Shown piece after piece: positions 46,968-63,560 of a stretch of DNA of 64,000 nt. The stretch is from positions 1,206 through 65,205 of the IMG/VR virus record IMGVR_UViG_3300012921_000081. One strand, given 5' to 3'. Position 1 is the first letter of the stretch, and every line of letters starts with the position of its first letter. Source of the stretch: a virus. The position numbers and the translations under genes are program-made. The notes below the pieces were generated by a model, which was not told the origin of the DNA, searched no databases, and saw only the letters and a list, made by a program, of their open reading frames with translations.

Positions 46968-47170
46968 CACGCACCGCCTTTCGTCGTCGCCTCGATGGAC
47001 CGCGCACATCGAACCAACTGGAGAAACGGACTCGGCCGACGATTCGGTAGCAACCGATTGAGGTGGACCCAGACGCCAGCCCAGTAGCCAAACATCACGA
47101 ACTTGTACTTCGAGAGCGAAGAGATTGCTTTGCTCGCCGCCTCATCGAGCTCTCTCTCAATGTCCTTCAT
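46967..47170 (-). CDS. Small hypothetical protein
   Basis: Coupled on both sides; KFVMFGYWAGVWVHLNRL. Confidence 0.65.
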   Translation of the reverse strand: MKDIERELDEAASKAISSLSKYKFVMFGYWAGVWVHLNRLLPNRRPSPFLQLVRCARSIEATTKGGA

Positions 47171-47870: not shown

Positions 47871-48016
47871 TCGAGCCTCCTTGCGTTTGTGTGTTTCGAG
47901 ACAAAGGGCGGGTGTTGGCTTTCAACCGCCGCGCGCCGGAACCACCCAGCGCTCGCGCCACCCGCCGGGGCCGGTCGAGCGATCACACCGATCGCCCAGC
48001 CACCGACCCGGTGGAC

Positions 48017-49114: not shown

Positions 49115-49148
49115 CGTGTCTGTCCTTGAATGGTTGAGAGGGTGAATA

Positions 49149-49379
49149 TCAGCGTTCAACGATCGCGTTTCGCGCCCACCGCTCGACGGTCTCCAGCATC
49201 CATTTGGACGCGGATGAGCGATCGACATTTGACACATACTGAGCAACGCCACCGGTGCCCATTGGTGTGGCGAGCACGACGAAGCCGGTGCCTTCAGGAA
49301 GCTTCGCCTTCACCACTGTTGCGATGTCGATGAACAACGCCTTGAGCTCCTGCTCTGTCATGTCGTCGAGCGTCTTCAT
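49149..49379 (-). CDS. Small hypothetical protein
   Basis: ORF track; ATGA overlap. Confidence 0.7.
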   Translation of the reverse strand: MKTLDDMTEQELKALFIDIATVVKAKLPEGTGFVVLATPMGTGGVAQYVSNVDRSSASKWMLETVERWARNAIVER

Positions 49380-49678
49380 GCGTACCGGCTCGCCTTCTTC
49401 GCTGCACGCCGCCGCATGCTTTCGAGCATCCGTCGTGCTTTGCGATTGCCGCCGGCGGGGACGTCCGTGCCTTTGAACCGTTCGAGGTCCACCTGGTCGT
49501 GCGAGGCCTTCAACGCCGCGATCTGGGCAGTCCAGGCTGCCATCCGCGCGGCGAGCTTCTGTGCGCTTGGGTGATGCGCGGCGGCATCCGCACTGACGGG
49601 TACGAGCCGCTCGCCGCGCATCCGTGCTTGTTCGATCTCCTGCGTTGTCTTGTAGACTTGTCCAGTGTCAGGGTTCAT
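49376..49678 (-). CDS. Hypothetical protein
   Basis: AAGGAG RBS; MNPDTGQVY. Confidence 0.7.
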   Translation of the reverse strand: MNPDTGQVYKTTQEIEQARMRGERLVPVSADAAAHHPSAQKLAARMAAWTAQIAALKASHDQVDLERFKGTDVPAGGNRKARRMLESMRRRAAKKASRYA

Positions 49679-49727
49679 CCGATGAAACTCCTTGAGAGAT
49701 GTGCTGTGCGCTCCAGCGCCAGCGGTG

Positions 49728-50624
49728 TTACTTCGCGGCCGCGCCGTGCGCTGGCCCGTTGATGATCAAAACTTCCTCGCAGTCATTTCCCCGCTGGTTC
49801 GTGGAGGAATGCCGCAGCCAGGTCCACTGGGGAGCGGAGTACAGACGCTCAATCAGGTGATGAGCGCCGTAGCGAATGACGATGCGGACGTTCCTGAACG
49901 TCGCCACCTTTGCGGCGATGCGGCCGTGGTACGCCGAGCTCACCTTGTGCTTGTACTCGTCGCCCAGATCGGGCCACGGGAGATCGATATACAAGCCGTG
50001 ATACGGCTCGTCCTTCACGCGATCGAGGAACTCAAGCGCGTCAAATGCGCTGAACTCCCAGAACTTGAGCGCGGCTCCCCAGGCCTCGAGCGACTCGACG
50101 GCCGACCGGAACCTGGTGCTGCTTGCACCGCCCGACGACGTGAAGCGGATCGCAAGGTTCTGGTTGAACTCGCGGACCTTACCGGCCTCGCCGCCGCGTC
50201 CCATCCAGGACGCCACGAAGTAGTCCGCCGCCCAATCCACGTCGCCGTTCTCGCGCAGAAGCACGGGTGCCGAACCGTCGCCAAAGAGTCCGCCGGTTGC
50301 CCCTTCGGCCTCCCGCTCGATGCATCGCTGCTGGGCCTGGGCCAGCTCCACGGGATGAAACAGGCGAGACTCGAGCAGTTCGATGAGCCGGCCACGCTGA
50401 TCGTTATGCCGGACCACCCGGGCGAGGTTGATGATGTGGGAGTGCAGGTCGTTGGCGAGGCCGGCAGTTGTGTCGATATGCGGGATCTCGCCAGCGCCGC
50501 CGACACACGGGATACCACACCAGCGCAGTCGTCCCAGTTGACGGCCGACCATTTCACCGCCGCTCCGGTTCGATCCGAACCAGTTGGCCAGCGAGGTGAT
50601 CTTCATTTCGCGGACGGGGTTCAT
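49728..50624 (-). CDS. Dam/D12-class adenine methyltransferase homolog with atypical motifs
   Basis: NWFGSN, PCVGGAG, ANDLHSHIINLARVVR, YIDLPW in place of DPPY. Confidence 0.7.
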   Translation of the reverse strand: MNPVREMKITSLANWFGSNRSGGEMVGRQLGRLRWCGIPCVGGAGEIPHIDTTAGLANDLHSHIINLARVVRHNDQRGRLIELLESRLFHPVELAQAQQRCIEREAEGATGGLFGDGSAPVLLRENGDVDWAADYFVASWMGRGGEAGKVREFNQNLAIRFTSSGGASSTRFRSAVESLEAWGAALKFWEFSAFDALEFLDRVKDEPYHGLYIDLPWPDLGDEYKHKVSSAYHGRIAAKVATFRNVRIVIRYGAHHLIERLYSAPQWTWLRHSSTNQRGNDCEEVLIINGPAHGAAAK

Positions 50625-52222
50625 TCCTCGTCCTCCCCGTCGTCATTGCTGCTGCCTGGCTTCTTCCCCTTGCCCGCCTTCCCCTTCGCTGACTTGGCGG
50701 ACGCTTTCTTGTCGTCGCTCCAGAAGTCCTCGAACTTGGGTGCTGGCTTCGCGACCTCGACGCCGAATGCCTTGGCAAACGTCTCCCCGACCGTCGGGTC
50801 AACCATGCCGCAAAACCGTGCGAAATCGACTGCGTCAATCTTCGCGTCCTCCATCACCGCCTTGAGTGCCTCGTCATCGAGCTTCGCCGCGACGGAGAGG
50901 AGCTTCCGCCATCCCGGCTTTGCGATGCTCTTTTGCCTGTCTGCCGGACTCCAATGCGACAGGTCACGAATGTCGCGGCATTCAGTCAGGTGCAAAAGCA
51001 CCGCTTTCCTCGTCGGAGTAAATGCCTGCCCGACGATCTGTGTGCTGATCGCATGGGCCCACTTCGAGCAGGCATGCTCGAACTTGCGCTTGGCGATCTG
51101 CTTGGGGTGATCCCAGGCGTCAGGGTGAGGCTCATTCTTCTTGCCCGCGGCGGCAACCTTTGATGCTGACTTCGGATCGACTGCCTTCTGGGCCTGACGC
51201 ACGAACGTGGAATCGCGCACGATCTTGGGGATCAGATTGCCAAGACCCGTCTTGGTGACTTCGAGGTCCTTGGACTTCTTCTTGGCGTCAACCACTTTCT
51301 CGACGCCGGCGACGATCGCCTTCTGCGTCACGCGCTTCTTGTTGTCGAAGCACCGCTGATTGCGGCAGACGTTGCCCTCGGGGTTGTGCTCTTTCGGGGC
51401 TCCCTCGAACAGCTGCGGATCGTTCGCGGTGTTGCTCGGGCATCCCTGGCACGCGGGCGCACCAGCGAATGCGACGTCGAGGCGCCATGGGACCACCTTG
51501 AGCGAGTACATGGACTCCGTAACTTTCCGCTGCAGGACCTCGAACGGTTCAAGGCCGACACCCGGCGTCTTGGACTCGAGCGCGCGGTATCCGATGATGT
51601 CGTGCGCGATGTCTTCGCACCGGCGAGGATCGGAGACCTTTGCCAGTTCCCTCGCGTAGGGCAGCGGGAGGTAACCACCCGCAAGCCAGGACAGGACCTT
51701 CGGCGGGAGCTTGCGGACGTACTGACGATCTCGCACCCAGGCAACGCTCTTGCCCATGCGCTGGGCGGTGATGACCATGTCGCCGCCCGCCTGGTCAAGC
51801 ACGCGGCCGACCGCGATGATCTTGTCGAGTTCGGACGGATCTTCGCGGTCGATGTTCTCCGCTGCTTTCCATTGCTGCACCATGTCAGGTTTGTTTGTGA
51901 CGTTGGCCCTGATCGTCGCGTGGCCCAACAGCCGCTTCGCGAAGAACCTGCGTTCACCAAAGACCAGGACAAAGCGGTCCGTCTCTGGCTCGTCAAGCAC
52001 GCCGATGGGCTGCAGGAGCGAGTTCGCTTGGATCGACTTCGCGAGATCCTCGATCGAGGTCGTGCTCGACGCCCGAGCCGATCTGTTCTCCGCCGGCTTC
52101 ACGATGATGCGATCCATCGGGATGTCGTGTTCGCCGACGGGCAGTGGGTCTCTCCGCTTGCCCGGCGGAGGGATGATCGCCTTGAGTTCTGGCTCGGGTG
52201 CTGGCTTCGGCTTCTTGCTCAT
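50621..52222 (-). CDS. parB: ParB/RepB/Spo0J-family protein with C-terminal Cys cluster
   Basis: LAKSIQANSLLQPIGV...VFGERRF.A...AENIDRED; CQGC...C..RC. Confidence 0.88.
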   Translation of the reverse strand: MSKKPKPAPEPELKAIIPPPGKRRDPLPVGEHDIPMDRIIVKPAENRSARASSTTSIEDLAKSIQANSLLQPIGVLDEPETDRFVLVFGERRFFAKRLLGHATIRANVTNKPDMVQQWKAAENIDREDPSELDKIIAVGRVLDQAGGDMVITAQRMGKSVAWVRDRQYVRKLPPKVLSWLAGGYLPLPYARELAKVSDPRRCEDIAHDIIGYRALESKTPGVGLEPFEVLQRKVTESMYSLKVVPWRLDVAFAGAPACQGCPSNTANDPQLFEGAPKEHNPEGNVCRNQRCFDNKKRVTQKAIVAGVEKVVDAKKKSKDLEVTKTGLGNLIPKIVRDSTFVRQAQKAVDPKSASKVAAAGKKNEPHPDAWDHPKQIAKRKFEHACSKWAHAISTQIVGQAFTPTRKAVLLHLTECRDIRDLSHWSPADRQKSIAKPGWRKLLSVAAKLDDEALKAVMEDAKIDAVDFARFCGMVDPTVGETFAKAFGVEVAKPAPKFEDFWSDDKKASAKSAKGKAGKGKKPGSSNDDGEDEE

Positions 52223-52437
52223 TGCTGTGGCTCCTGGCTCACGCCAATCGGCGCGGCGGTGTTACGAGCGGCCTCCTCGGCCGCGATTTCTTGTTTGATC
52301 TGGATGATGCGTGCGGCGTCGTCCATCGCGTCTGCGAATGCGCTCAATGGGTTGAAGCCCGAGGAGCCGACCGTGATGCCATCCAGTTCGTAGATGGCGA
52401 GGTACAGGTGGTTGCTGATGCGCGTGACGGTCAGCAT
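52219..52437 (-). CDS. Small hypothetical protein
   Basis: AGGAG RBS before MLTVTRIS; coupled to parB. Confidence 0.55.
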   Translation of the reverse strand: MLTVTRISNHLYLAIYELDGITVGSSGFNPLSAFADAMDDAARIIQIKQEIAAEEAARNTAAPIGVSQEPQQ

Positions 52438-52841
52438 GAAGCATGCTCCTGAAGGACTGGAAGATCTCGGCGAGTGGTTGAACGGGGCGGCCTTGCGACC
52501 CGCGCAGAAGATCTGCACTGCGGCGACGGCCGCGCTTCTGCGCGATGGGTCGGATTGAGGACGGCGTCGAGTTGTCCCGCAGCGAACAGCCTGAGTTCGA
52601 CGGCCTCGGCGATCGACCGCCCTTCACGCGTGAACGTCCAGGACGCCTCACGCGGACCAGTTGCAGCGCCGTCGAAGCGCAGGAGGATCCCCTCGGCGAC
52701 GAGCATGCGTAGAGTCGTCGCGGGATCGAACCCACCACAGAAGCGATGAGCGTCCGACCGGTGCATCGGGCGGGCGAGTCCGAGCAGTCGCATCAGAATG
52801 CGTTCAGCAAGAATCCATTCGCTGGGTGGGCGGGCGCTCAT
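52431..52841 (-). CDS. Small winged-helix-like hypothetical protein
   Basis: ATGA coupling; TLRMLVAEGILLRF...WTFTREG. Confidence 0.5.
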   Translation of the reverse strand: MSARPPSEWILAERILMRLLGLARPMHRSDAHRFCGGFDPATTLRMLVAEGILLRFDGAATGPREASWTFTREGRSIAEAVELRLFAAGQLDAVLNPTHRAEARPSPQCRSSARVARPPRSTTRRDLPVLQEHASC

Positions 52842-54676
52842 TTCAGCCCCGCCGGAAAGAGGATCGGTGCGGCGGTCACCTGGCCACGGCCGCGGACGAT
52901 GAATCCACGTGAGCTGAGTGTTGAGAGGTAGTTGTTGAATGTGCCGCTGACGGCGTAGCCCGTTGCCTTGGCCAAGCTCTCGACGGTGATTGGTTTGTTG
53001 CCGCCCGCGACTCGATACTTAAGCAGCGCATCGAGGATTGATGCGGCGGGTCGATCGAGCGTCGCGATGACTTGATCATGCAGAGCTGCCAGAGTGCGCG
53101 GCGCGTGTGGACGATCGGCGATGTGATGGCCCTGTGCGGTGAGAGCAACGGAGCCGCGGTCCCGCGTGATCAGACCAGCAGTGCTGAGCTGGCTGAGGTA
53201 GTTGTTAAAAGTTCCGCTCACCGCGTAGCCGGCGATTGATGCGGCTTGCGTGACCGTTGGATCTGCGACGCCGATCATCTTCCACCACGCGAGGCCACTG
53301 AGGATCTTGCGACATGGTGCGGACAGGGAACCAGCCCCTCCCTTTACCGCCGTGGCGCTGGCCCGATTGCCAGCGCCGCCGCCGCGTGGGTGCCCACCGA
53401 CCGTCCGAGCGGCACTGACTTGGGATCCGTTTTCCTCGGACTGCTGCGGATCCGCGCCACCAAGGTCGGGCCGGGTTTCCCCGGCGGAGGGCAAGTGGTA
53501 CTTCATTACCTGGGTCGATTCGACATCCCGGATGGAGTCGAGTTCGCCGAGCTGTTGTTCGAGATGGGTGCTTGCAATCCGCAACGCGTCCTGCACAAGC
53601 CGTGCCTTGCCACCAACGAACGTGGCCATCTCCGCGCGTGCCTCTGCGGCTGCCTCCCTGCGAATCGCATCGACGTCGATGGCTGGCGGGAGCAATTCGA
53701 TGCGAGGAAGCGGTTCGGAGTTGCCGCTCGCGCTCAGTCGCGCTTCGAGTTCCGCAACTCGCGCCCGCAACTTCTCCGGGTCGTTGGCTTCCGCCTCAGC
53801 GACTGCCACCGTCATCCTTGCCCGAAGCGCGTCCATGTCGATCGCGGCCGTCGTCACGGACAGGCGCGGAGCATCGTCCGTCGGCGTCGCGCTGCTGTCG
53901 TACGTCGTTATGGCCGGGAACGTCACACGCTTGAGCAATTCCATCGCGGGAAACCAGATCCAACCTTCGCCGCGCTTGAGCCGGGGCAAACCGTGGATGA
54001 CCTCGCGGATGTCCTTCGCTTCAGCCTGGCCCTCGACCCATCGCTCAATCGCCTCGCGATCCTGGGGAGCAACGACCTTCATCGCCACCATCGCCTGGGC
54101 CATGCCGAGCAGGTCCTTGTTGACCTTCGCCGGCCGCTGGCTCGCGAGCACAAGGCGGATGCCTCGGGCGCGGCCGCCCGTCGCCAAACGCTGGAAGCGG
54201 TGCAGCATCCGCTCGTGACCCTTGGGCGGCGTCTGAGGACCAAAAGTGTGGGCCTCATCGATCACGAGGTGCAGGACGCCCGCATTGCGGCGGTAGACGG
54301 TTTCGGCGAAGGCCTCGCCGAACGTGCGCTGCTCGTCGATCAAGAGTTCGGAGACATCGACCACGATCGGCGGCGCGTTCACTTCCGCCGCGAGGCTCGC
54401 GATCGCCTCGCCCATTTGAGCCGCGTCATTCCCGTTGAGAGGGACATCCGCATGGCGACCACCAAACACCACCACGGGAAACCCGGGGCCGGTGCCGGCG
54501 GCGTTGGACTTCAGTCCCCACCACGCGCCGGTCGGGTCAAGCACACATACGCGACGTCCAGCCTCGAGCAAGCGCTCAACGGGACGCTTGATGGTGTAGG
54601 TCTTGCCGCAGCCAGTTGTGCCAAGCACGGCCCAGTGCTGCTGAAGGATCTCTTCGGGAATCTCATAGTGCGACAT
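52838..54676 (-). CDS. HerA/FtsK-like (DUF87) ATPase with two C-terminal wHTH repeats
   Basis: GTTGCGKT, LVIDEAH, GRARG..LASQRP; duplicated GYAVSGTFNNYLS.LS..G.I. Confidence 0.85.
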   Translation of the reverse strand: MSHYEIPEEILQQHWAVLGTTGCGKTYTIKRPVERLLEAGRRVCVLDPTGAWWGLKSNAAGTGPGFPVVVFGGRHADVPLNGNDAAQMGEAIASLAAEVNAPPIVVDVSELLIDEQRTFGEAFAETVYRRNAGVLHLVIDEAHTFGPQTPPKGHERMLHRFQRLATGGRARGIRLVLASQRPAKVNKDLLGMAQAMVAMKVVAPQDREAIERWVEGQAEAKDIREVIHGLPRLKRGEGWIWFPAMELLKRVTFPAITTYDSSATPTDDAPRLSVTTAAIDMDALRARMTVAVAEAEANDPEKLRARVAELEARLSASGNSEPLPRIELLPPAIDVDAIRREAAAEARAEMATFVGGKARLVQDALRIASTHLEQQLGELDSIRDVESTQVMKYHLPSAGETRPDLGGADPQQSEENGSQVSAARTVGGHPRGGGAGNRASATAVKGGAGSLSAPCRKILSGLAWWKMIGVADPTVTQAASIAGYAVSGTFNNYLSQLSTAGLITRDRGSVALTAQGHHIADRPHAPRTLAALHDQVIATLDRPAASILDALLKYRVAGGNKPITVESLAKATGYAVSGTFNNYLSTLSSRGFIVRGRGQVTAAPILFPAGLK

Positions 54677-55856
54677 TCTGTGGTCCTTGTGTTTGTTCGC
54701 CGCGGTCGATGCGCAGCGTGTCGGTGGGCACTTCCAGGGAGACTCCCGCGGCGGCGGCCATCAGCGAGAGGACGCGGAGTTCCAAGTGCGGAGACTGGAG
54801 CTGCTCGATTTCGGTTGTGATCACGGCGCCCGTGGCGAGTGTGCGATTGCTCTCGATGGCGCGCGAAGCCGAACGGCAGAACGCGCCGAATGCGGCGTGG
54901 TCCGCGTGTGACCCCGCGAACCGTTCGGCCCTGCGAACCAACAACGCTCTGAATGCCTCGGCGACAGCGGGCGATGTCGGCGCCGGAGAATCCTGCGTGG
55001 GGGTCTGAGCGCGTGCTCTCGCGGCGAGGCGGCGATTGTCTTCGCGAACCCATGCCTTGTACCCGTCGAGGTGCTCCTCGCCCGTGCGGAGGAACTTCTC
55101 TGCGAGTTTGGCGGGATACACAATCCGCCCTGTCGCGCACGCCGTGTTGAGACGGTCGGCGACGTAGCGCACCTTGGTCATGCTCATGCCTTCGAGATGC
55201 GAGAGCTCGAAGGCAGTCGCGGTGCAGACCCCCAGGTGTTCGATGGCCTCGACGATGGCATCGATTTCATCCGGCGAGAGATTGCTGCCTCCGCCTCCTC
55301 CGCTTTCATGCTCGCGGATACCGCCCGCGTCGGCTGGGTGGGGCTTGGCCTGATGTTGTTGAGGATGTTCTGACTGTTCAGGATGTTCAGGTGCCAAAGC
55401 TCTGACACCTTTGTAATCCTGTTTTGACACCTTAGTTGATCTGGTTTGACACCTTTGTTGAGCAGGTGTGACACCTTTGTGTTGCGAATAAGGTGTCAAA
55501 GCTGTGACACCAATGCATACCCCGGTATCGGCAGTCGCGACGGAACCGAACAAGGTCTGCTGCTGCTCAAGCCAATCGAGCTCGATGCGGATTACGTGCG
55601 TCTGCTTGTACCCCTGGCCGCGACGCACGAAGGAAATCGCACCGACACGTTCAAGTTCGGCAAGGCGGCGAATAACTGTGCTTCGGGAGGCACCCAAAGC
55701 GGTACCGAGTGACTGCAGTGACGGCCGGAGGCACCCGTCGTCCCAACCCATCCACTGCACCATGGCCAGCAGAACATGGCGGAGCTTGGGCTCAAGCCTC
55801 GCACACCCGTTGATTGCTTCGATGGCACGCTGAGGACCAGTGACGGGGCGGCTCAT
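54663..55856 (-). CDS. Phage replication initiator (N-terminal HTH)
   Basis: RPSLQSLGTALGASRSTVIRRLAELERVGAI; iterons inside the gene. Confidence 0.8.
   Translation of the reverse strand: MSRPVTGPQRAIEAINGCARLEPKLRHVLLAMVQWMGWDDGCLRPSLQSLGTALGASRSTVIRRLAELERVGAISFVRRGQGYKQTHVIRIELDWLEQQQTLFGSVATADTGVCIGVTALTPYSQHKGVTPAQQRCQTRSTKVSKQDYKGVRALAPEHPEQSEHPQQHQAKPHPADAGGIREHESGGGGGSNLSPDEIDAIVEAIEHLGVCTATAFELSHLEGMSMTKVRYVADRLNTACATGRIVYPAKLAEKFLRTGEEHLDGYKAWVREDNRRLAARARAQTPTQDSPAPTSPAVAEAFRALLVRRAERFAGSHADHAAFGAFCRSASRAIESNRTLATGAVITTEIEQLQSPHLELRVLSLMAAAAGVSLEVPTDTLRIDRGEQTQGPQNVAL
55390..55511. promoter_or_regulatory. Putative replication origin: TGACACC iterons
   Basis: TGACACC at 55403, 55425, 55447, 55469 (22-bp period) and 55505; inverted copy 55492-55498; AT-richer patch. 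Confidence 0.8.
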
Positions 55857-56137
55857 ACGGGAATCCCCCCGTCGAAGAGCGACCTAGGACCAGCGGCGTT
55901 CCTTGCCTCCGTGGCGACCCCAGGGACCTCCACATCGATTCCGTTCTTGGCCAGGACGCGCACGACCTTCCGAGCCACCAATCGCCACCGTGCCTGGTCA
56001 CGCTCACCCAGCTGCCAATAGCGGAGCTTGCCCCAGCGCTGGATCTCGATCTCGTGTTCGGGGGTGTCGAACGCTTCCGCGATCACGGCGGCGAGGTCTT
56101 CAATGACTTGGTCGTTGTCGTTGTCGGTGGAGGGCAT
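55853..56137 (-). CDS. Small hypothetical protein
   Basis: ORF track; coupled to the initiator gene. Confidence 0.65.
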   Translation of the reverse strand: MPSTDNDNDQVIEDLAAVIAEAFDTPEHEIEIQRWGKLRYWQLGERDQARWRLVARKVVRVLAKNGIDVEVPGVATEARNAAGPRSLFDGGIPV

Positions 56138-56214
56138 CGTGCTCGTCCAGGGAAGGCGGGGATAGAAAGCGACCCGCGCCGCCGGTAGACGGCGCGAGTG
56201 CGGAGGAGAGAGAG

Positions 56215-57306
56215 CTACTTGGTGGAGGCGACCTGCGTGCCAGGGCGAGGGCTCAGCGGCGACGTCGTGCGCGATTGGACCGATTCACGCGTTGCCTCAC
56301 CCCGCGCGGCGGAGGCCTGCTGCATGAAATCGTGTGTGGTGAAGTCGCCCGGCTTCGGGTAGGGAGCACCCTTCGAAAGCGCAACCTCGATTGCAATCGC
56401 CGCGGCCTCGCGGGCAGAGGCCTCCGCCTTCTCCTGTGTGCGGCCATCCGCCATGCACATAGGAAGTTCCTTGGTCCATCCGACGAACCCAACGTCCTTG
56501 TCTGGTTGGATGTGCAGCGTGTACTGGGCGGCGATCTCGCGTGCTCGCGCAAGTGAATCCTGAGACTTGTCAGTCGCCTGCGCCTTTTCAGCTACCTCGG
56601 CCATCATGCCGGCGACGGCCTCGGCCGCTGACCCGCGCGGCGGTGTTGTCGAGGGAGCGCTCGACGGATCCTCGTCGACTTCGCCGTCGGGGAAGAAATC
56701 AGAACCGGTGACGGTCGAGTAGATGTATGCCAGCATCTTCCGCGTTGCCTTGCCAAGGATGGCGTCGACGCCCTGGCCCTTGTTGGTGCGCACAGGGATG
56801 TCGCGATGCAGGTTCTTCTTCTCGCCTTTCAGTTGAAACTCGGCGTCGTACGGAACGACGGCACCCTCAGTCAGGACACGGGGAAGACCAGGCTTCATGA
56901 CGAGATCTGACAGGCCGGGATACTCGCGGACCAAGCGCGTGAAACCTTCGCGCGTGATGTACGTGCGTCCGGCGATGATGTTGAACTCGTTACCGACCGG
57001 CATTACGCCGCGAACGAGGGCCTCAAGCATGCAATCGCGGACGGTCTTGAGCGGATATCCCCCGTCGTCAGCGCGGTCCGTGCGGAACCCCAAGGGGGTG
57101 TCCTGCAGCTCCATGATGTCCAGCATCATCTTGTCACTCAAGTATCCGCGGATCATGCGGATGGCCTGTGACATCACAATGGCCTTCTTGATTGCGGGGA
57201 CCTGCGACAACGCAAGCTCTTTAGCGCTGTCGATGGTCTGCTGAATCTCGACGTACTGCGCTTCTGACTTGTCAGCGACCTTTGCCAACGTATTCGAATC
57301 GTTCAT
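56215..57306 (-). CDS. Putative single-strand annealing recombinase with C-terminal HicB-like domain
   Basis: Follows the RecE-like gene; GNEFNIIAGRTYITREG core; C-terminal YTLHIQPDKDVGFVGWTKELPMCMADGRTQEKAEASAREA (HicB-like). Confidence 0.6.
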   Translation of the reverse strand: MNDSNTLAKVADKSEAQYVEIQQTIDSAKELALSQVPAIKKAIVMSQAIRMIRGYLSDKMMLDIMELQDTPLGFRTDRADDGGYPLKTVRDCMLEALVRGVMPVGNEFNIIAGRTYITREGFTRLVREYPGLSDLVMKPGLPRVLTEGAVVPYDAEFQLKGEKKNLHRDIPVRTNKGQGVDAILGKATRKMLAYIYSTVTGSDFFPDGEVDEDPSSAPSTTPPRGSAAEAVAGMMAEVAEKAQATDKSQDSLARAREIAAQYTLHIQPDKDVGFVGWTKELPMCMADGRTQEKAEASAREAAAIAIEVALSKGAPYPKPGDFTTHDFMQQASAARGEATRESVQSRTTSPLSPRPGTQVASTK

Positions 57307-57411
57307 GTGTGGTTCCTTTCCCGCGAAAGTGCGGAAAGGGGCGTGATGGACTCGAACCATCAAGCGTGGCCAGAACCGTCGCTTCGGCACGACGGAACCC
57401 ACGCCCGCCCC
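57307..57411 (-). ncRNA. tRNA-like element A plus SD-sequestering hairpin (leader of SSAP gene)
   Basis: GGGGCG/CGCCCC closing stem, T-arm GATGG-TTCGAGT-CCATC, 74 nt; followed by CCTTTCCGC-N6-GCGGGAAAGGAACC-ACAC-ATG. Confidence 0.65.
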
Positions 57412-57416
57412 TCGAT

Positions 57417-58316
57417 TCAGTTGTGCGAGGGACCGCCTGTGTAGCGCGACGAGTAGTAAACCCGCAGGTCGATCGGCCGCACCCCAGTTGGGAGGCCGGG
57501 CCATTCACCGGTGCGCAGACACATTGCGTAGTCGTTGAGAGCGCCGCGATATTCCTTCGCCGCGTAGCCCCGCATCAGCGTGTCCACCTCGGTCGTCGGG
57601 TAGTACGCGGCGATCTTGTAGGGTGCGGAGTTCTGAATAGCGAACCACTGGCCTGGCACGTTCTCCCGTCCCAGGATCCGCAGACCTTCCTCCTGCATGT
57701 GATCCTGGATGTGATAGCCGTACTCCCCGATGCTCCGCGCAAATCCGTCGGGAGTTGGGTCAGCGCAGGACTTGAAGTCAACGCGCGTGCCAGCCTTGGA
57801 ACCCTTCGGCCAGATGATCATGTCAGCACGCGCCTTGCAGCGAACGCCAGTCTCGGGGTCCACCCACGTGAAACTCACTTCAACGTTGCAGTCACGACCG
57901 CCGGAGATCCGCTGCTCCATCATGGCGGAGATCTCCGGATGCTTCAGCATGTTCGCGCGAATGCGGCGGATCGCCTGGACATCGTCATCCCAGGCGATGA
58001 TCTTGCCCGGGTGCTTGGCCTGATAGTCCTTGACGCCTTGAGCGTCTCTGGTCTTGTAGATCTCACCATTCGGCTTTGGCGGAGGGGGAATCATCAGCGA
58101 CGGGAGCCGCTCGGGCTCAAGCATCGCGGCATGAAGCAACGTGCCGAAGGCCATCTGGTCCGAAGTCTTTTCCGCTTCGTCGAGGTGCTCACGGACGTCG
58201 GCCATCGACACCCGTGCCCACTTGAGGGCGGAGAAGTTGATGGCCTCCCATTCGTTGTACTCGTGAAATGGAACGCCGAAGTAGATGCCGGGTGGAGGGG
58301 GTGGTACACGATTCAT
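57417..58316 (-). CDS. RecE/exonuclease VIII-like PD-(D/E)XK nuclease (DUF3799-like)
   Basis: INFSALK, MAFGTLLHAAMLEP, EVSFTW..ETGVRCKARAD, DFKS, YGYHIQ. Confidence 0.88.
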   Translation of the reverse strand: MNRVPPPPPGIYFGVPFHEYNEWEAINFSALKWARVSMADVREHLDEAEKTSDQMAFGTLLHAAMLEPERLPSLMIPPPPKPNGEIYKTRDAQGVKDYQAKHPGKIIAWDDDVQAIRRIRANMLKHPEISAMMEQRISGGRDCNVEVSFTWVDPETGVRCKARADMIIWPKGSKAGTRVDFKSCADPTPDGFARSIGEYGYHIQDHMQEEGLRILGRENVPGQWFAIQNSAPYKIAAYYPTTEVDTLMRGYAAKEYRGALNDYAMCLRTGEWPGLPTGVRPIDLRVYYSSRYTGGPSHN

Positions 58317-58350
58317 GACGGGACCTTTCTTCATGGCGCGGAGTGACCGC

Positions 58351-58731
58351 TCACGCGCACTGGTTGGAAACGGGCTGTTGCTGAATGGCGATGACGCCAG
58401 CGATCGCGTCGAGCTCCGCGGCGAGTTGCTGCAGATCCGCCGCTTCGTACTTGGCCACGTGGCCAGCAATGTCACGAAGCGACCTGGCGACGCGCGCGAG
58501 GTTCTTGGCCTGGGATGACTGGCAGATCGCGGCGAACGCGTTGTTGGCCAAGGCCATGACGAACTCGCGTACTTCCGGGGTTGCGGATTCGAGAACACAC
58601 CGACCGCCGTAGTCGGTCGGCTCGTTCTCGTAGGTGGTTGGAGCGTGCCGACTGATAAGCGCATCGGCTTGGTGAGATTTAGACCACGGGAGATACAGCG
58701 GTGCCTGACCGGGAGCGGGGGGAGTGGTCAT
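58351..58731 (-). CDS. Hypothetical protein
   Basis: ORF track; ATGA overlap. Confidence 0.65.
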   Translation of the reverse strand: MTTPPAPGQAPLYLPWSKSHQADALISRHAPTTYENEPTDYGGRCVLESATPEVREFVMALANNAFAAICQSSQAKNLARVARSLRDIAGHVAKYEAADLQQLAAELDAIAGVIAIQQQPVSNQCA

Positions 58732-59036
58732 GCCTGAAGTTCCATGAGTTGAGACTGCAGCTGGTCAAACGCCTGCAGCGCAGCCGGGGGAATGAACGAT
58801 GGGTTGGCGAGGGAGACGACTTCGTGCGGATAGACGGTGTCGGGATCAGTGACGCGCTGCTTGCGCTCAAGCCACTTCCAAGCACGCATGGATCTCACGG
58901 TTCCGTCCCGCCGCAACCGGATCGATCGCACAAGGCAGATCTGCGAGGTCACGGCGGACAGGCGGACGTTGATGATGTCGCCGACCTTGATGGTGAGCAG
59001 CGATCGGTTGTGCCCGCGAATCTGGTGAGAGGTCAT
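58728..59036 (-). CDS. Hypothetical protein
   Basis: Start at ATG 59036 (MTSHQIRG), ATGA-coupled. Confidence 0.6.
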   Translation of the reverse strand: MTSHQIRGHNRSLLTIKVGDIINVRLSAVTSQICLVRSIRLRRDGTVRSMRAWKWLERKQRVTDPDTVYPHEVVSLANPSFIPPAALQAFDQLQSQLMELQA

Positions 59037-59443
59037 GCGCCACCGCCTTCTCGCACGACCTCGTAGCCATCCTGCCTCGACTTTGAGAACCTCTGACCGG
59101 ACGCGATGAACTCTCGAATGAACACAAGTGCGCGACGGCACTGATCGAAGTCGAACATCCCAAAATGGGTGTCGTCTACAGGGATCTTCATCTTCTTCGA
59201 GAGCCACAGATAGGCGTTCCGCCGCCGACGTCCGCGTCCGGTCTTGTGGTCTCTCCACAAAGGGTCGAAGAGACAATGGCACTCATTGCGAATGGTGCGC
59301 GTTTCCTGATCGGCCGGCGTGCTTGTCCGACCGTCCCAGCATCCAACGGTGCAACCGGGGTACGTGCACGCGTGGAACACGCCGTAGCGCGTATTGCGAG
59401 GTTGCAATACCACCGCGTGCTTCGGGCAGGTGAGCACGGTCAT
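59033..59443 (-). CDS. Zinc-finger protein (DUF3268-like)
   Basis: CPKH...C..PGC..GC...A....R..R..CH..FDPLW...AY.WL...M.I....H.GMFD..QC. Confidence 0.75.
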   Translation of the reverse strand: MTVLTCPKHAVVLQPRNTRYGVFHACTYPGCTVGCWDGRTSTPADQETRTIRNECHCLFDPLWRDHKTGRGRRRRNAYLWLSKKMKIPVDDTHFGMFDFDQCRRALVFIREFIASGQRFSKSRQDGYEVVREGGGA

Positions 59444-60318
59444 GTGCCACCTCCCGACTTGGAAGCCATGGCCTTGCACGCGGCGACAAGGTCAGCTGTC
59501 GCCTTGGCTTTCTTGGCGTAGTCGTCCTTGATCTTCGCGATCTGCTCGTCGGCATATGCCCCGTCGTTGTCGTGCACGCGCTCAAGCTTCTCGATCACAT
59601 CGGCAGGAACCGGAATGCCAAGCCGAACGCACGACCGCACCAGCTCGACGTGGAGACGACTAAATCCACTCGCTCGATTCTCGTCGAACACCCGCGCTGC
59701 AATCTTGGTCGCCTCCGCGAGCGCTTCTTCGTATGACGTGCAGGGGATACACGTGTACCTGCCACAACCACTGCCGTCGTTGTAATCGTGAATCTTCCAT
59801 GACAGATCGCCCTGGGAGGATCCGTAGAGCGTCAGGAGCTTGAACTCTTGCGGAACCCTGCCGTAATGATCCGGCTTGCCGGACCTGGACTGAGGGATGA
59901 TCTCAAGACCGTCGTACTGCTCTCGCACAAAGTGCGTGACCTTGCCATCGATGAAGTCCTGAATGCGCGACAGGGCGGGAATGGCCGTTGTCTTGGCGAG
60001 CGCGGCAGCAAGCGACGTTTCAGCCCCGCGAATCTTGCTCGTGAGGTCGTTCAGTGTCTGCCGGGCATCTTCTGCGCGTTTCTCAAGGTCGATCGCGATC
60101 TCGTGCCGCTTTGGAACCCATGGGGATGTGAACGCCTGGCTAAGCACCACCGGGTACTCGGACGCGCGCACGCCGTAGTCATCGTCGGTGAACAGCTGTG
60201 CGGCCACGATTCCGTGAGCGGTCCAAGCGAGCATTTGGTACGCGTTGCCCTGATCATCGAAGATGTTCGACCCTTCCGGAGTCGATGTGTCGACAAGGTT
60301 GGCGGGTGCATCACTCAT
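59440..60318 (-). CDS. Hypothetical protein
   Basis: 292 aa; coupled on both sides. Confidence 0.75.
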   Translation of the reverse strand: MSDAPANLVDTSTPEGSNIFDDQGNAYQMLAWTAHGIVAAQLFTDDDYGVRASEYPVVLSQAFTSPWVPKRHEIAIDLEKRAEDARQTLNDLTSKIRGAETSLAAALAKTTAIPALSRIQDFIDGKVTHFVREQYDGLEIIPQSRSGKPDHYGRVPQEFKLLTLYGSSQGDLSWKIHDYNDGSGCGRYTCIPCTSYEEALAEATKIAARVFDENRASGFSRLHVELVRSCVRLGIPVPADVIEKLERVHDNDGAYADEQIAKIKDDYAKKAKATADLVAACKAMASKSGGGT

Positions 60319-60647
60319 GCCACACCCCCAGCCGCGGCCTTCTTGGTCATCGCGACCGCAGCCGCGAGATAGAGTTCTGCTTGCCGCTGGAGCGCCTTTG
60401 ACTCGCTGACGAAGATCTCGTCAGTGTCGATCGCACGTTCGTGAGCACTGCGCGGATTTGAGCAGTAGTCGATGAAAGCCCAGCCGTCACTTGGCGAATG
60501 CCCGAAGCCGACGCCACACCTCGACACTTCGAACCGCGGCGCATCGCTTGACGTGCTTCGGACCCACCACACGTCCGAAGTCGTTATGTCCTTCGCCGCG
60601 ACGCCGTCGGCCGTCACCAGTTCTCCGATTGTGGGTGCATACTTCAT
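60315..60647 (-). CDS. Hypothetical protein
   Basis: ORF track; coupled. Confidence 0.65.
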   Translation of the reverse strand: MKYAPTIGELVTADGVAAKDITTSDVWWVRSTSSDAPRFEVSRCGVGFGHSPSDGWAFIDYCSNPRSAHERAIDTDEIFVSESKALQRQAELYLAAAVAMTKKAAAGGVA

Positions 60648-60853
60648 GCCGCACCCCCGACTACCTTGCCATTGCGACAGATCGCGATCACGGTCTCAGA
60701 GTGGAGGAGTGGACCTGCGGCGCACACGCGGAAGCTGCTGCAGTCGGATGGCTGGACCAGCATCACGGGGTCATGTGCGATTGCGGAACACGCGCGGGCA
60801 TGTGCCACTGCCAGGTCGAGCGAGTCAAACGTGGAAGGAAGGTGCTCGTTCAA
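60644..60853 (-). CDS. Small hypothetical protein
   Basis: ORF track; coupled. Confidence 0.6.
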   Translation of the reverse strand: MNEHLPSTFDSLDLAVAHARACSAIAHDPVMLVQPSDCSSFRVCAAGPLLHSETVIAICRNGKVVGGAA

Positions 60854-62181
60854 GCCGCACCTCCAGCCTGTGCCGCAAGGGTCTTGGTGCTGACAACGCG
60901 GCCTTCTTCCAGGATGATGTTCTGACCTTCCGCAGCCTTGGCTGTGGCGACTTCGAGGATGAGCTGGAAGCCGAACTGGTGAGCGAGGTCGCGCAACATG
61001 GCGATCGTCGGTCCCTGCATGACATCGGCGTCACGGAACAGCATCACGCGGAGGTGCGGAGACTGACGCATTGCCACGTGGGCCGACACCAGGATCTGCG
61101 TGGCGCGGTTCACCTGGCTGAACAGCACGCCGTTCACGCGGAGGTTGCCCTCATCGTCAAACGCCAGGCCCTTGACCGGGATCTTCGTGTTCTTCAGCAG
61201 TTCGCGCTTGCGCTCGCCGATGTCCTCGATGCGACGCTGCTGCTCTTCATACTGCCGCGCCTTGATATCACGCCGCTCCAGAAGCCGGCGACGCTCCTGG
61301 CGCTGCCGCGCGGTTCTGTTCAGTTGGTCGATCTCGCCAAGCTGCTTCTCAATTGCAGAGACATCCGGATCAATAAGCGCCTCAATGGTGGGAGCGACGG
61401 GGCCGAGATCGGCGACGGCCGCGGCGTGCTTAGCCTTAGCCGAAGCGAGCTCCCGCTCCAGGGATTCGATAATCGTCTCAATGCTCTTGATGGTGTTGCG
61501 GCTGTCAGCAAGCCACTGGCGCTGAAGGTTGTTGTCGCGGATCTTTGCAAGCGCGCTTGCGTGTTCCTCGCGCAGTTGAGCGGCGTTGGTTTCCTCGTCG
61601 GGACCCTTGATGTCTGGAACGAGCGTCAGAGCGCCCTCGATCGACTTGAGCTCGACACCGGCGTCGCGGCGGAGCATGGTCGCATCGGCGAGCGCCGTGT
61701 CGAGAGCGGCGAACGCATCGGTCAGCCCGAGGACACGCCGCATCTCGTCGGCCTGGTCGCGCGGCTTGAGCCGGTAGAACTCACCAACGTCAAAGCAGCG
61801 TTCTGCCCGGAGCAGTTCCAGGAACCGCTGCGGCGGCATGTCAATCGGATTGCCTTCGCTGTCGGTGATCTTGACGGTGCGCGTGCCCTTCGCGGTCTGT
61901 GTTGCAGAGACGGTGTAACCGCTCAGCTTCCCAAGCACCTTGCACTTGTCCGCACCGATGCGCACGGGCTCGACGTTCGTGCCGTTCTTCTCGCCGAGCA
62001 TGAACTGGATGGCGTCGAGGAATGAAGTCTTCCCGGATCCGTTTGGCCCGGATACTTCGACGGTGTCTGCCTCCAAGTCCACCTGCAGGAAGCGGATGCC
62101 CTGGAAGTTTTCAATCGTGAGAGCGATGAGCTGCTGCGGCGCGACGTCGGGTACGTTCGAATCAAGTGCCTTGCTGACCAT
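60850..62181 (-). CDS. SMC/Rad50-like AAA ATPase
   Basis: LTIENFQGI, GPNGSGKTS, long coiled coil, C-terminal ABC half with degenerate signature (FSQVNRATQ). Confidence 0.85.
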   Translation of the reverse strand: MVSKALDSNVPDVAPQQLIALTIENFQGIRFLQVDLEADTVEVSGPNGSGKTSFLDAIQFMLGEKNGTNVEPVRIGADKCKVLGKLSGYTVSATQTAKGTRTVKITDSEGNPIDMPPQRFLELLRAERCFDVGEFYRLKPRDQADEMRRVLGLTDAFAALDTALADATMLRRDAGVELKSIEGALTLVPDIKGPDEETNAAQLREEHASALAKIRDNNLQRQWLADSRNTIKSIETIIESLERELASAKAKHAAAVADLGPVAPTIEALIDPDVSAIEKQLGEIDQLNRTARQRQERRRLLERRDIKARQYEEQQRRIEDIGERKRELLKNTKIPVKGLAFDDEGNLRVNGVLFSQVNRATQILVSAHVAMRQSPHLRVMLFRDADVMQGPTIAMLRDLAHQFGFQLILEVATAKAAEGQNIILEEGRVVSTKTLAAQAGGAA

Positions 62182-62296
62182 TGTCTGGTTCCTTTCCCGC
62201 GGTATTGCGGAAAGGCGTGGGGAGGGGTCGAACCTCCCGGAGCCCGTGCGTCGTCCCGAAGAAGGTCTCGAAGGGACGACGTGCCCACACACGCCT
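62182..62296 (-). ncRNA. tRNA-like element B plus SD-sequestering hairpin (leader of SMC-like ATPase gene)
   Basis: AGGCGTG/CACGCCT 7-bp closing stem, T-arm GGGAGG-TTCGACC-CCTCCC; followed by CCTTTCCGC-N6-GCGGGAAAGGAACC-AGACA-ATG. Confidence 0.65.
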
Positions 62297-62314
62297 CAAT
62301 GCGTGTGGGGCTGA

Positions 62315-62845
62315 TCAGTTGTCGCGAGAGATCTGGGAGTCGCGGAGGCGGTCGTAGTCCTCGATCTCTGGCGCGGCGTCGCGTTCGTAGAACTTGCCGC
62401 AGTCATCACATTCGAGGCCGCCGTTGCATGCGGACATTCCGACTTCGGGATCCGCCTGCGATGGCGACGAATCAATGAACTTGGTGCAACCGCAATCGCC
62501 ACAGACGGGCGCGTCGAAGTCGAACTCGGGAGTTACCACAGGAGCGGAGACCTTGCGGGCGAAGGTCTTGATCACCTGGTCGGTGTCACGAAGGCGACGA
62601 AACAGCGCGGCATCGGCTTGGGTTCTGCAAGCTTGGCACAAGACAGCGCAGTACTCCCCGGAATCGCCGCGGCTGCCGGTGCTGAGCTTGCCGCACTCGA
62701 TGCAGGGGCGGAGAGAAACGGCCGGGGCAGGCGAGCCTTGCGACTCGCCCGCGCCCGGCACTCGGGGGGGGCGGCTGTAATCGGCGACGATCTTGGGAGC
62801 GATCACCCCAACGACCTCGTCGAGGTTCGCCTCGGCCCGGGTCAT
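62315..62845 (-). CDS. Multi-zinc-finger hypothetical protein (first early gene)
   Basis: CIEC...C...CQAC and CGDC...CDDC pairs; ATG at 62845. Confidence 0.6.
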   Translation of the reverse strand: MTRAEANLDEVVGVIAPKIVADYSRPPRVPGAGESQGSPAPAVSLRPCIECGKLSTGSRGDSGEYCAVLCQACRTQADAALFRRLRDTDQVIKTFARKVSAPVVTPEFDFDAPVCGDCGCTKFIDSSPSQADPEVGMSACNGGLECDDCGKFYERDAAPEIEDYDRLRDSQISRDN

Positions 62846-63069
62846 TGCCCCGTTCACGCGGGCGGCGGACCGGGCCAGCAGATCGGTCCCAAGACGCGCG
62901 GACGGGCAGACACGGTCGGGGATCAGGGCGGCGGGGAGGGCGGAACGGGAGGAGCGGGAGGGGCATTCCATGCCTGGCTTCCTTTCGGGAGCCGGAGGCA
63001 TGCTTCAAGGGTGTCCAAGGTCCGCCTATAGGCATCTAGGATGCCCAAGATGACCTCGGGTGATAGAGC

Positions 63070-63097
63070 CGGGGGTTCGATTCCCCCCGGCTCCATT
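63070..63097 (+). repeat. attR core (displaced tmRNA 3' end)
   Basis: 28/28 identical to 2551-2578. Confidence 0.95.
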
Positions 63098-63313: not shown

Positions 63314-63560
63314 GCAACACACCATCATCCTCCCAAAGCGTCGGATGATGGTGGCACATGCAGAGCCGTGTCAACTCCGGTGATCGGGCCACCTGCCCGA
63401 CAAACATCCGCTGGGCCCGTTCACGCGACACGGGTGAGTCGCTGCGGAGCTGCTGCCCGGCAGGGTCGCGCCCGGTGCAACACACCATCATCCTCCCAAA
63501 GCGTCGGATGATGGTAGCACATTCAGAGCCGTGTCAACTTCGGTGATCGGGCCACCTGCC
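63314..63560. repeat. Two 84-bp direct repeats (63314-63397, 63477-63560) with an internal 10-bp inverted repeat
   Basis: 3 mismatches between copies; ACCATCATCC-N12-GGATGATGGT in each. Confidence 0.85.

What the first reader, a model, noticed from the sequence alone, without database searches (positions are those of the whole stretch)
62845..63097. No recognisable cI/Cro: integration may itself be the lysis-lysogeny switch
Seen: I find no XRE-HTH/S24 repressor or divergent cI-cro pair. On the circle, int, attP and the whole early operon are co-directional, and the attP-form int stop (62923) is only about 78 nt upstream of the first early gene (62845). Inference: integration disconnects the early genes from the int promoter, and in the lysogen int mRNA becomes antisense to the last about 150 nt of tmRNA, allowing retroregulation.
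Basis: inference. Interest (0 to 1): 0.75.

Follow-up and report, generated by a model that had tools for sequence, protein, structure and literature searches.

The report
Integration unplugs phage early operon
In this prophage of a planctomycete-type bacterium the attachment site lies inside the integrase gene, just downstream of a conserved promoter-like element and directly upstream of the early genes, so insertion into the host tmRNA gene cuts the early genes off from their likely promoters; whether this replaces a repressor is not shown.

Summary
A 60.5-kb prophage sits in the 3' end of ssrA, with 28-bp cores at 2551-2578 and 63070-63097. The integrase ORF runs across attL. In the free form it stops at 62923, and 10 natural free-form relatives show int, attP and early genes co-directional with no intergenic gap.

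One correction: the first early gene starts at 62971, not 62845. It overlaps the free-form int by 49 nt, so there is no 78-nt gap.

Six-frame and per-ORF HMM searches find no XRE, S24, cI, Cro, RHH or Xis domain.

New here: a sigma-70-like element, TTGACW-17/18-NAWGAT (window 2769-2740), is embedded in the int tail about 160 nt before the core. It occurs in 7 of 10 free-form relatives, in two codon phases. It is followed by a stem that starts 2-3 nt after the predicted start site, and the next gene lies 244-307 nt downstream. Integration therefore separates the early operon from this element and from Pint. Both then point into ssrA antisense, and Int loses a conserved C-terminal helix.

"No repressor at all" is unproven and unlikely (about 0.12), and there are no transcript data. 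The scan has already noted the tail swap on other DNA; the promoter arrangement is the new part.

The parts
2233..2579 (+). Host tmRNA gene (ssrA). Its last 28 bases are supplied by the prophage-side core.
   Evidence: Rfam RF00023, 154 bits, E 1e-60. ARAGORN missed it.
2551..2578 (.). attL core (T-arm plus acceptor 3' strand of tmRNA).
   Evidence: Exact 28-bp repeat of 63070-63097.
63070..63097 (.). attR core.
   Evidence: Exact 28-bp repeat. A source-run contig runs through it into host DNA.
2428..3804 (-). Tyrosine integrase, prophage form (458 aa). The catalytic domain ends near 2866. The last roughly 40 residues are read from ssrA antisense.
   Evidence: PF00589, E 1.8e-15. An identical 458-aa public gene call exists. 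Tail comparison with integrated and free relatives.
3805..3840 (-). Pint-like element: TTGACA (3840-3835), 17 nt, CAACGT, 7 nt, then ATG 3804. The geometry suggests a leaderless int mRNA.
   Evidence: It is the only conserved block of the 543-nt gap when compared with L005, with identical spacing to the ATG. L006 has the same layout: TTGATT-17-CAGGAT-6-ATG.
2740..2769 (-). Sigma-70-like element embedded in the int ORF: TTGACA-18-GAAGAT. It points through attP to the early genes, and in the lysogen into ssrA antisense.
   Evidence: It occurs once each in the window, L005, L006, L010/L011, L012, L020 and L021, and nowhere else in those loci. Shuffles of the 64-kb window give 0.0 expected. Codon choice has p about 0.003 per lineage. 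It appears in two different codon phases.
2654..2734 (-). Predicted 5'-terminal leader stem. Arms 2734-2723 and 2665-2654 form 12 bp, starting at nt 2 of the predicted transcript.
   Evidence: MFE fold. 0 of 1000 shuffles match it. An equivalent stem with a different sequence occurs in L005, L006, L011, L012 and L020.
2583..2622 (.). Strong hairpin abutting the core on the phage side. It is probably the replacement terminator for ssrA, and it also lies in the leader.
   Evidence: -36 and -33 kcal/mol, z about -5 on both strands. L005 keeps the stem with changed sequence.
62923..63069 (-). Free-form-only tail of Int (49 codons). It encodes a conserved amphipathic helix and is detached from int in the prophage.
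   Evidence: Reconstruction. pN/pS is 0.33, with third-position bias in the int frame. A helix follows the core in all free-form relatives, although the core is read in three different frames. AF2 predicts helix 406-427 in L005 Int.
62315..62971 (-). First early gene (218 aa): two zinc ribbons plus helices, with no known family.
   Evidence: The start is conserved with L005. Homologs P0013-P0015 always lie just after int. AF2 and Foldseek give only generic Zn-ribbon matches.
43949..62971 (-). Early operon. It includes an SMC-like ATPase, a PDDEXK nuclease, an O-like initiator with iterons, a HerA-like helicase, ParB-like proteins, methylases, CsrA and MazG.
   Evidence: Pfam and PHROGs.
43888..43912 (.). 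Palindromic hairpin between the convergent early operon and the plus-strand cassette. It is probably a bidirectional terminator.
   Evidence: Read from the gap sequence.
42027..43866 (+). Four-gene plus-strand cassette (85 aa, DUF7678, 77 aa, Lys/Ser/Gly-rich HARE-HTH protein). It is the best place for an unrecognised lysogeny function.
41705..42026 (.). Divergent 322-nt control gap between the late operon and the plus-strand cassette.
63314..63560 (-). Two host 84-nt dispersed repeats. Each carries a hairpin and a TTGACA-18-CATCAT match that points toward attR.
   Evidence: They are multi-copy in the source run.

Best explanation
ANATOMY
The phage genome is built as one transcriptional stream that passes through attP. 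After the integrase catalytic domain the ORF continues through four parts:
- about 95 codons that are not constrained as protein. They carry a conserved sigma-70-like promoter element (2769-2740), a structured leader and the 28-bp core;
- 32 codons beyond the core (63069-62972) that are under protein-level selection and encode a C-terminal helix;
- a last 16 codons that overlap the start of the first early gene (62971).

FREE PHAGE DNA
Both the promoter in front of int and the embedded one should read through attP into the early operon. The leader before the first early gene would be about 280 nt.

WHAT INTEGRATION INTO ssrA DOES
1. It leaves the early operon with only 126 nt of phage DNA between host sequence and its first start codon. 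No recognisable promoter lies there.
2. It turns both promoters into ssrA antisense.
3. It replaces Int's helix by about 40 residues read from antisense ssrA.

CONCLUSION
Integration is thus very probably one working part of the lysis-lysogeny control: a cis shut-off of the early genes plus a remodelling of Int. I expect a still unrecognised trans-acting factor to act with it.

SHOWN: the anatomy, its conservation, and DNA-level selection on the element.
INFERRED: that the element fires, that transcripts cross attP, and that the early genes are silent in the lysogen.
For: - Cores and the int ORF across attL.
- The free-form reconstruction matches natural L005.
- In 10 of 10 free-form loci the next co-directional gene overlaps or abuts the int stop by 8 nt or less.
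- L010 and L011 are one phage caught integrated in the tmRNA of a Phycisphaerales MAG and free.
- The embedded element TTGACW-17/18-NAWGAT occurs once per locus in 7 of 10 free forms and nowhere else. Chance expectation is 0.0 per 64 kb.
- Rare A/T-ending codons build the element, with p about 0.003 per lineage.
- It appears in two codon phases, DLT and VD[RK], so it is a DNA signal and not a peptide motif.
- The predicted start lies 144-163 nt before the core and 244-307 nt before the next gene.
- A stem starts at nt 2-3 of the predicted RNA in six lineages with unrelated sequences. Shuffles matching it per 1000: 0, 3, 43, 84, 2, 0.
- Between the -10 and the core, codon periodicity is lost (differences .30/.30/.24, pN/pS 0.89). 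It returns after the core (.25/.19/.47, pN/pS 0.33).
- AF2 shows a disordered linker at 314-404 followed by helix 406-427.
- No promoter-like site lies in 62972-63097 or in any intergenic gap of the prophage.
- No terminator-like site lies on the minus strand between the element and the first early gene.
- Prophage and flank depths in the source run are about 1003-1031 against about 998, which fits a quiet integrated prophage.
Against: - There are no transcript data of any kind.
- The -10 (GAAGAT) is non-canonical, and planctomycete promoters are poorly known. The failure of a consensus scan to find promoters in attR or inside the early operon therefore has little power.
- Three free-form relatives (L009, L013, L022) lack the element.
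- A -33 kcal/mol hairpin lies between the element and the core and could stop transcripts.
- Two host-side TTGACA-18-CATCAT matches point into attR.
- A cis shut-off cannot silence unintegrated or replicated copies, so it does not explain establishment or immunity alone. This is reasoning from lambda and BPs biology.
- The plus-strand cassette with a HARE-HTH protein and about 45 ORFs without any family could hide a repressor.
Confidence: 0.55

Rival explanations
1. Conventional switch with an unrecognised repressor. An early promoter lies inside or beyond the first early gene and is held off by a trans-acting protein, for example from the plus-strand cassette or one of the small unknown ORFs. 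The overlap of int, attP and the first early gene would then be mere genome compaction, as is typical of tRNA/tmRNA-integrating elements.
For: - Most ORFs have no family, so HMM silence is weak.
- A divergent unit with a winged-helix protein exists at 42027-43866.
- Gaps of about 300 nt inside the early operon (52519-52837, 58732-59032) could hold promoters.
- The L006 counterpart of the first early gene has a weak sigma-70 region-4-like HTH, so this gene family may itself be regulatory.
- Trans silencing is needed to shut off replicating copies (established phage biology).
Against: - It does not explain DNA-level selection for a promoter-shaped element inside int in two codon phases, nor the conserved 5' stem and spacing.
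- It does not explain the absence of an intergenic gap in 10 of 10 relatives.
- No operator-like repeat is shared between the gaps.
- The 85-aa and 77-aa cassette proteins have no HTH-like neighbours. The 85-aa protein has no homolog beyond its own record.
Confidence: 0.25
2. There is no repressor at all. Lysogeny is kept only because integration removes the early operon from its promoters, and induction is simply rare excision that rejoins them.
For: All the evidence for the best explanation applies. In addition, six-frame searches found no XRE, S24, cI, RHH, MerR or Xis domain, and no excisionase-like gene lies next to int.
Against: - Unintegrated copies would keep expressing the replication genes, which lie in the same operon.
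- There would be no immunity to superinfection.
- In the known relative of this idea (BPs), integration works by producing an active trans repressor (PMC3694055).
- Absence of hits is not absence of function.
Confidence: 0.12
3. The embedded element does not drive the early genes. It could be a binding site for Int or a host factor within the attP arm. Or it could be a promoter whose purpose is an antisense RNA against ssrA, or against int read-through, in the lysogen.
For: - It lies about 160 nt from the core, within the usual reach of attP arms.
- In the lysogen it faces ssrA.
- A strong hairpin follows it.
Against: - The hexamers equal the general sigma-70 -35 consensus, and the spacing is 17-18 nt, across integrases only 24-69% identical. 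Arm sites normally co-vary with the integrase.
- A stem begins right at the predicted +1.
- The distance to the next gene's start is conserved at 244-307 nt.
Confidence: 0.08

Closest known systems
Tn916: transfer genes are expressed only after excision, from Porf7 reading across the joined ends (Celli and Trieu-Cuot 1998, as described in PMC11658703)
   Same: Genes at one end have no promoter of their own in the integrated state. A promoter at the other end reaches them only when the ends are joined. A hairpin or terminator sits near the junction.
   Different: - Tn916 is a conjugative element, not a phage.
- Its mechanism is shown by transcripts, whereas here it is inferred.
- Here the promoter-like element lies inside the integrase ORF.
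- Here the linear virion DNA already has the two parts joined, so only integration breaks the link.
Myxophage Mx8 IntP/IntX: attP inside the int coding sequence (PMC6070905, citing Tojo 1996 and Magrini 1999)
   Same: It is a tyrosine integrase whose ORF spans attP. Integration creates a new 3' end and an altered enzyme.
   Different: - No sequence similarity was detectable in the phage collection.
- The target is tRNA-Asp, not tmRNA.
- The review read here mentions neither a promoter inside int nor abutting early genes for Mx8.
Integration-dependent immunity of mycobacteriophages BPs, Brujita and Charlie (PMC3694055, PMC4557955)
   Same: Integration is a working part of the switch. attP lies inside a gene, so the viral and prophage products differ. 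Integration also separates a gene from its promoter.
   Different: - There attP is in the repressor gene, and integration stabilises a trans-acting repressor.
- A divergent rep-cro pair exists there.
- Here attP is in int, no repressor or cro is recognisable, and the tail carries no ssrA-like degradation tag.
State-dependent promoter switching for int in ICEKp1 and ICEclc (PMC13023037)
   Same: The promoter connectivity of an element integrated at a tRNA gene changes between the integrated and excised states. Stem-loops in the leader attenuate transcripts.
   Different: There the regulated gene is int itself, and the integrated form borrows the tRNA promoter. Here the genes affected are the phage early operon.
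Lambda cI/Cro switch and sib retroregulation of int (textbook knowledge)
   Same: Both are temperate siphovirus-like phages. In both, integration changes what lies downstream of int.
   Different: - There is no XRE or S24 repressor and no divergent PR/PRM pair here.
- In lambda, sib acts on the free form, whereas here the antisense overlap arises in the integrated form.

Membership tests
Tyrosine recombinase / phage integrase (PF00589) | Catalytic domain with the R..HxxR..H..Y residues | tested here: met
   PF00589, E 1.8e-15. R190, H277, R280, H303 and Y313 are invariant in the alignments. The AF2 model is confident up to residue 311.
Integrases whose ORF spans attP (Mx8 IntP/IntX type) | The att core lies inside the int ORF, so the integrated and free forms have different C-termini | tested here: met
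   L010 and L011 are one phage caught in the two states.
Integrases whose ORF spans attP (Mx8 IntP/IntX type) | The two forms differ in recombination activity | not testable with these tools
   This needs recombination assays. Selection on the free-form tail is only indirect support.
Integrases whose ORF spans attP (Mx8 IntP/IntX type) | Sequence kinship with Mx8 IntP | tested here: not met
   tblastn against 50,697 phage records found only a weak Helicobacter phage hit.
Integration-dependent immunity (BPs type) | attP inside the repressor gene, next to a divergent cro-like gene | tested here: not met
   attP is inside int. The next gene is co-directional. No repressor or cro domain was found.
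Integration-dependent immunity (BPs type) | A C-terminal ssrA-like degradation tag on the viral form, removed by integration | tested here: not met
   The free-form tails end in PPSPPP, LSPPR and EGRRA, and none is LAA-like. A helix is lost on integration, not a tag.
Junction-crossing expression (Tn916 type) | A promoter at one end reads across the joint into genes at the other end | tested here: inconclusive
   A conserved promoter-shaped element and leader were found. No transcripts are available.
Junction-crossing expression (Tn916 type) | No promoter upstream of those genes in the integrated element | tested here: inconclusive
   No consensus match lies in 62972-63097 or in the prophage gaps. 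The scan has little power in this host group.
Lambda-type cI/Cro switch | An XRE-HTH repressor, often with an S24 peptidase, divergent from a cro-like gene | tested here: not met
   Six-frame HMM searches were negative. The only divergent unit (42027-43866) has no such domains.

The most novel reading that the evidence does not exclude
A lineage of temperate phages that keeps lysogeny without any repressor. The early operon's only promoters sit on the integrase side of attP, one of them inside the integrase ORF. Integration alone would then silence the lytic programme, and rare excision alone would restart it.
Probability: 0.12. Interest if true: 0.85.

Novelty: new variant of a known kind. 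Interest (0 to 1): 0.62.

Why it matters
If the embedded element fires as predicted, this phage group uses the recombination event itself as a cis-acting transcriptional switch for its lytic genes. That principle is proven for the conjugative element Tn916. For phages it is known only in the different form of integration-dependent immunity.

It would also be a clear case of a promoter and a structured leader kept inside a protein-coding frame.

Phages of Planctomycetota are almost unstudied. The prediction is precise: start sites near 2733 and 3804, a transcript crossing attP, and silent early genes in the lysogen. It can be tested with standard 5'-end mapping.

Tried and rejected
- Megablast of 23 kb against isolated phages: no match.
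- Single-protein locus searches in IMG/VR for int and for the first early gene: one weak hit and none.
- attB pattern in GTDB genomes: no match.
- Sequencing runs: no RNA holder listed.
- Read laying gave contigs only. No contig showed an attP or an empty attB joint for this phage. An activated-sludge contig shows a related organism's tmRNA end. Contigs cannot show starts, ends or rare excised forms.
- RNAalifold on five leaders failed because the sequences do not align. The stem was therefore tested per sequence.
- Foldseek (PDB, Swiss-Prot models) and the ESM Atlas for the first early gene: only generic zinc ribbons.
- Atlas for the 85-aa and 77-aa cassette proteins: unnamed viral or planctomycete clusters.
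- PADLOC on the cassette and on the cargo island: nothing.
- Plus-strand ORF 58701-59066, considered as a hidden divergent repressor: rejected. Its translation is Arg/Gly-rich, and minus-strand ORF 58351-58731 codes better there.
- Plus-strand ORF 3834-4277 upstream of int: rejected for the same reason.
- Gene 4348-4668 as an excisionase: no family, and not conserved in L005.
- Motifs shared between Pint and other gaps: none above chance.

Full report
WHAT IS THERE

The window is part of an IMG/VR provirus record. Rfam finds a complete tmRNA gene at 2233-2579 on the plus strand. Its last 28 bases (2551-2578) recur exactly at 63070-63097, which chance does not explain. Between the two cores lies a 60.5-kb prophage. 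Nearly all its genes are on the minus strand.

Right of attR is host DNA: two dispersed 84-nt repeats, then an RHS-type toxin and immunity pair. In the run that probably yielded the assembly, prophage and flank have the same depth, about 1003-1031 against 998. A contig runs from the early genes through attR into the host. The element is therefore integrated and quiet there.

THE INTEGRASE SPANS attP

The integrase ORF is 2428-3804 on the minus strand. A public gene call uses the same 458-aa frame. Its PF00589 domain ends about 140 codons before the stop. The frame then stays open through attL and about 150 nt of ssrA antisense.

This is not only a reconstruction. L005 is a 16-kb metagenome contig whose integrase is 69% identical. 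It is a natural free form with the order tail genes, int, early genes, and its Int tail matches the rebuilt tail residue by residue. L006, L009, L011, L012, L013, L020, L021 and L022 are further free forms. L010 is the same phage as L011, but integrated in the tmRNA gene of a Phycisphaerales MAG.

In every free form the core lies 30-55 codons before the int stop. The core is read in three different frames, yet a predicted amphipathic helix always follows it. Against L005, the 32 codons after the core show coding-type selection in the int frame: pN/pS is 0.33 and differences by codon position are .25/.19/.47. AlphaFold models L005 Int as a folded domain up to residue 311, a disordered stretch at 314-404, and a helix at 406-427. 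Integration thus removes a selected C-terminal helix.

The same principle holds for Mx8 IntP/IntX (PMC6070905). Other follow-ups of this scan have noted it on other DNA.

CORRECTION OF THE COORDINATES

The alignment with L005 shows third-position wobble well upstream of 62845, and L005 has GCG at that codon. The conserved ATG, preceded by AAGG, is at 62971, and a public gene call uses it.

The gene therefore overlaps the last 16 codons of free-form int. In all ten free forms the next co-directional gene overlaps or abuts the int stop, with at most 8 nt between them. There is no room for a separate terminator and promoter.

REPRESSOR SEARCH

Six-frame HMM searches of the whole 66-kb record found nothing at E<=1 for HTH_3, HTH_31, HTH_19, Peptidase_S24, Phage_CI_repr, HTH_17 and MerR_1. 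RHH_1 gave only a 13-bit hit in a wrong-strand frame. The same searches ring in the control genomes. Pfam, PHROGs and PADLOC on about 70 ORFs gave no repressor, Cro or excisionase.

The winged helix in 54663-55856 belongs to an O-like replication initiator, with iterons at 55403-55480.

It is not true that nothing diverges. Four plus-strand genes (42027-43866) face away from the late operon across a 322-nt gap. They end at a palindromic hairpin (43888-43912) that is shared with the end of the early operon. One of them has a Lys/Ser/Gly-rich N-terminus and a HARE-HTH domain. The others are unnamed.

A PROMOTER-SHAPED ELEMENT INSIDE int

Between the catalytic tyrosine and the core, the window and L005 share the sequence TTGACA, 18 nt, GAAGAT or GATGAT (window 2769-2740, minus strand). 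The pattern TTGACW-17/18-NAWGAT occurs exactly once each in the window, L005, L006, L010/L011, L012, L020 and L021. It is always at the same place in the int tail and on the int strand, and it occurs nowhere else in those loci. Shuffles of the 64-kb window give 0.0 expected. These integrases are only 24-69% identical.

The element is built from rare codons: TTG for Leu, ACA or ACT for Thr, and GAA or GAT. By the phage's own codon usage this has a probability of about 0.003 per lineage. In L020 and L021 it lies in another codon phase, reading V-D-R/K in place of D-L-T. The constraint is therefore on the DNA and not on a peptide.

Downstream of the -10, up to the core, the window-L005 comparison loses codon periodicity (.30/.30/.24, pN/pS 0.89). 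The DNA there is still more conserved than synonymous sites in the catalytic domain.

The predicted start site lies 144-163 nt before the core and 244-307 nt before the next gene's start. In six lineages a stem begins 2-3 nt after the predicted start and closes 70-90 nt downstream. The six stems have unrelated sequences. The number of shuffles per 1000 that match them is 0, 3, 43, 84, 2 and 0.

A strong hairpin (2583-2622, z about -5) abuts the core and is kept in L005 with changed sequence. On the plus strand it probably serves as the replacement terminator for ssrA.

A second conserved block lies in front of int: TTGACA, 17 nt, CAACGT, 7 nt, then the ATG. Spacing is identical in L005 and the layout is the same in L006, which suggests a leaderless int mRNA.

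WHAT FOLLOWS

On free phage DNA both elements point through attP into the early operon. In the prophage they point into ssrA antisense. The early operon is then left with 126 nt of phage sequence, of which 28 are the core, between host DNA and its first start codon.

Neither the tool's scan nor my relaxed scan finds a promoter-like site there or in any intergenic gap of the prophage. No terminator-like site lies on the minus strand between the embedded element and the first early gene.

The closest proven parallel is Tn916, whose transfer genes have no promoter when integrated and are read from Porf7 across the joint after excision (PMC11658703). ICEKp1 and ICEclc switch promoters for int in a state-dependent way (PMC13023037). 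In BPs-type phages integration is part of the switch, but there it acts by producing a stable trans repressor (PMC3694055).

LIMITS

- There are no transcript data. No RNA holder was listed, and only contigs could be laid.
- The -10 is non-canonical, and planctomycete promoters are poorly characterised. The absence of consensus matches downstream of attR therefore carries little weight.
- Three free-form relatives lack the element.
- The hairpin before the core might stop transcripts.
- Two TTGACA-18-CATCAT matches in the host repeats point into attR.
- A cis mechanism cannot silence unintegrated or replicating copies, and the replication genes are in the same operon. A trans-acting factor is therefore still expected. 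It could be in the plus-strand cassette, among the many ORFs without a family, the zinc-ribbon first early gene (its L006 counterpart has a weak sigma-70 region-4-like HTH), or even Int bound to attP arms.

VERDICT

- Observation: partly confirmed.
- Interpretation: partly supported.
- Integration-sensitive wiring of the early operon: confidence about 0.55.
- A completely repressor-free switch: about 0.12.
- Class: a new variant of known principles (Tn916-type junction-crossing expression, Mx8-type Int remodelling) in an almost unstudied phage group, with a sharp and testable prediction.

Noticed in passing
window 55403-55480: Four iterons (TGACACCTTWGT, 22-bp spacing) lie inside the O-like replication initiator gene 54663-55856. 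This is a probable origin, arranged as in lambda.
   Followed up: partly
window 63314-63397 and 63477-63560: Two 96%-identical 84-nt host repeats each carry an 11-bp hairpin and a TTGACA-18-CATCAT match that points toward attR. They are multi-copy in the source run, so they look like REP or MITE elements. They could insulate the prophage from the host RHS operon or feed transcription into it.
   Followed up: partly
L008 616-2217 (window 63610 onward): The right flank holds the C-terminal end of an RHS/YD-type toxin (low GC) and a 236-aa membrane protein, probably its immunity partner. Both are transcribed toward the prophage.
   Followed up: no
window 47625-47870: The prophage carries a CsrA homolog (PF02599, E 7e-11) in its early operon. 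L005 has one at the same place.
   Followed up: no
window 43084-43866: This plus-strand protein has a Lys/Ser/Gly-rich N-terminus, a long acidic or disordered middle and a C-terminal HARE-HTH domain. It could be a nucleoid-associated or silencing protein.
   Followed up: partly
window 62923-63096: The ATG formed by the complement of the tmRNA ...CCAT end opens a 57-codon ORF in the int frame. In the window, L005 and L006 a G-rich Shine-Dalgarno-like run precedes it on the int side. The selected tail helix might also be made as a separate small protein from the embedded promoter's transcript.
   Followed up: no
window 2233-2579: ARAGORN did not report this tmRNA, although Rfam scores it at 154 bits. 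ARAGORN did find the homolog in L010 (tag ANSGYRLAA). The likely tag here is AERNYALAA.
   Followed up: no
window 38582-40273: This 563-aa ORF sits where a large terminase would be expected, but it has no Pfam hit at E<=0.01.
   Followed up: no
L020 3330-3370: In the distant relative L020 the tRNA-like T-arm of the core is in the same orientation as int, not antisense. That clade apparently targets a gene transcribed in the int direction, yet it keeps the embedded element and the tail helix.
   Followed up: no
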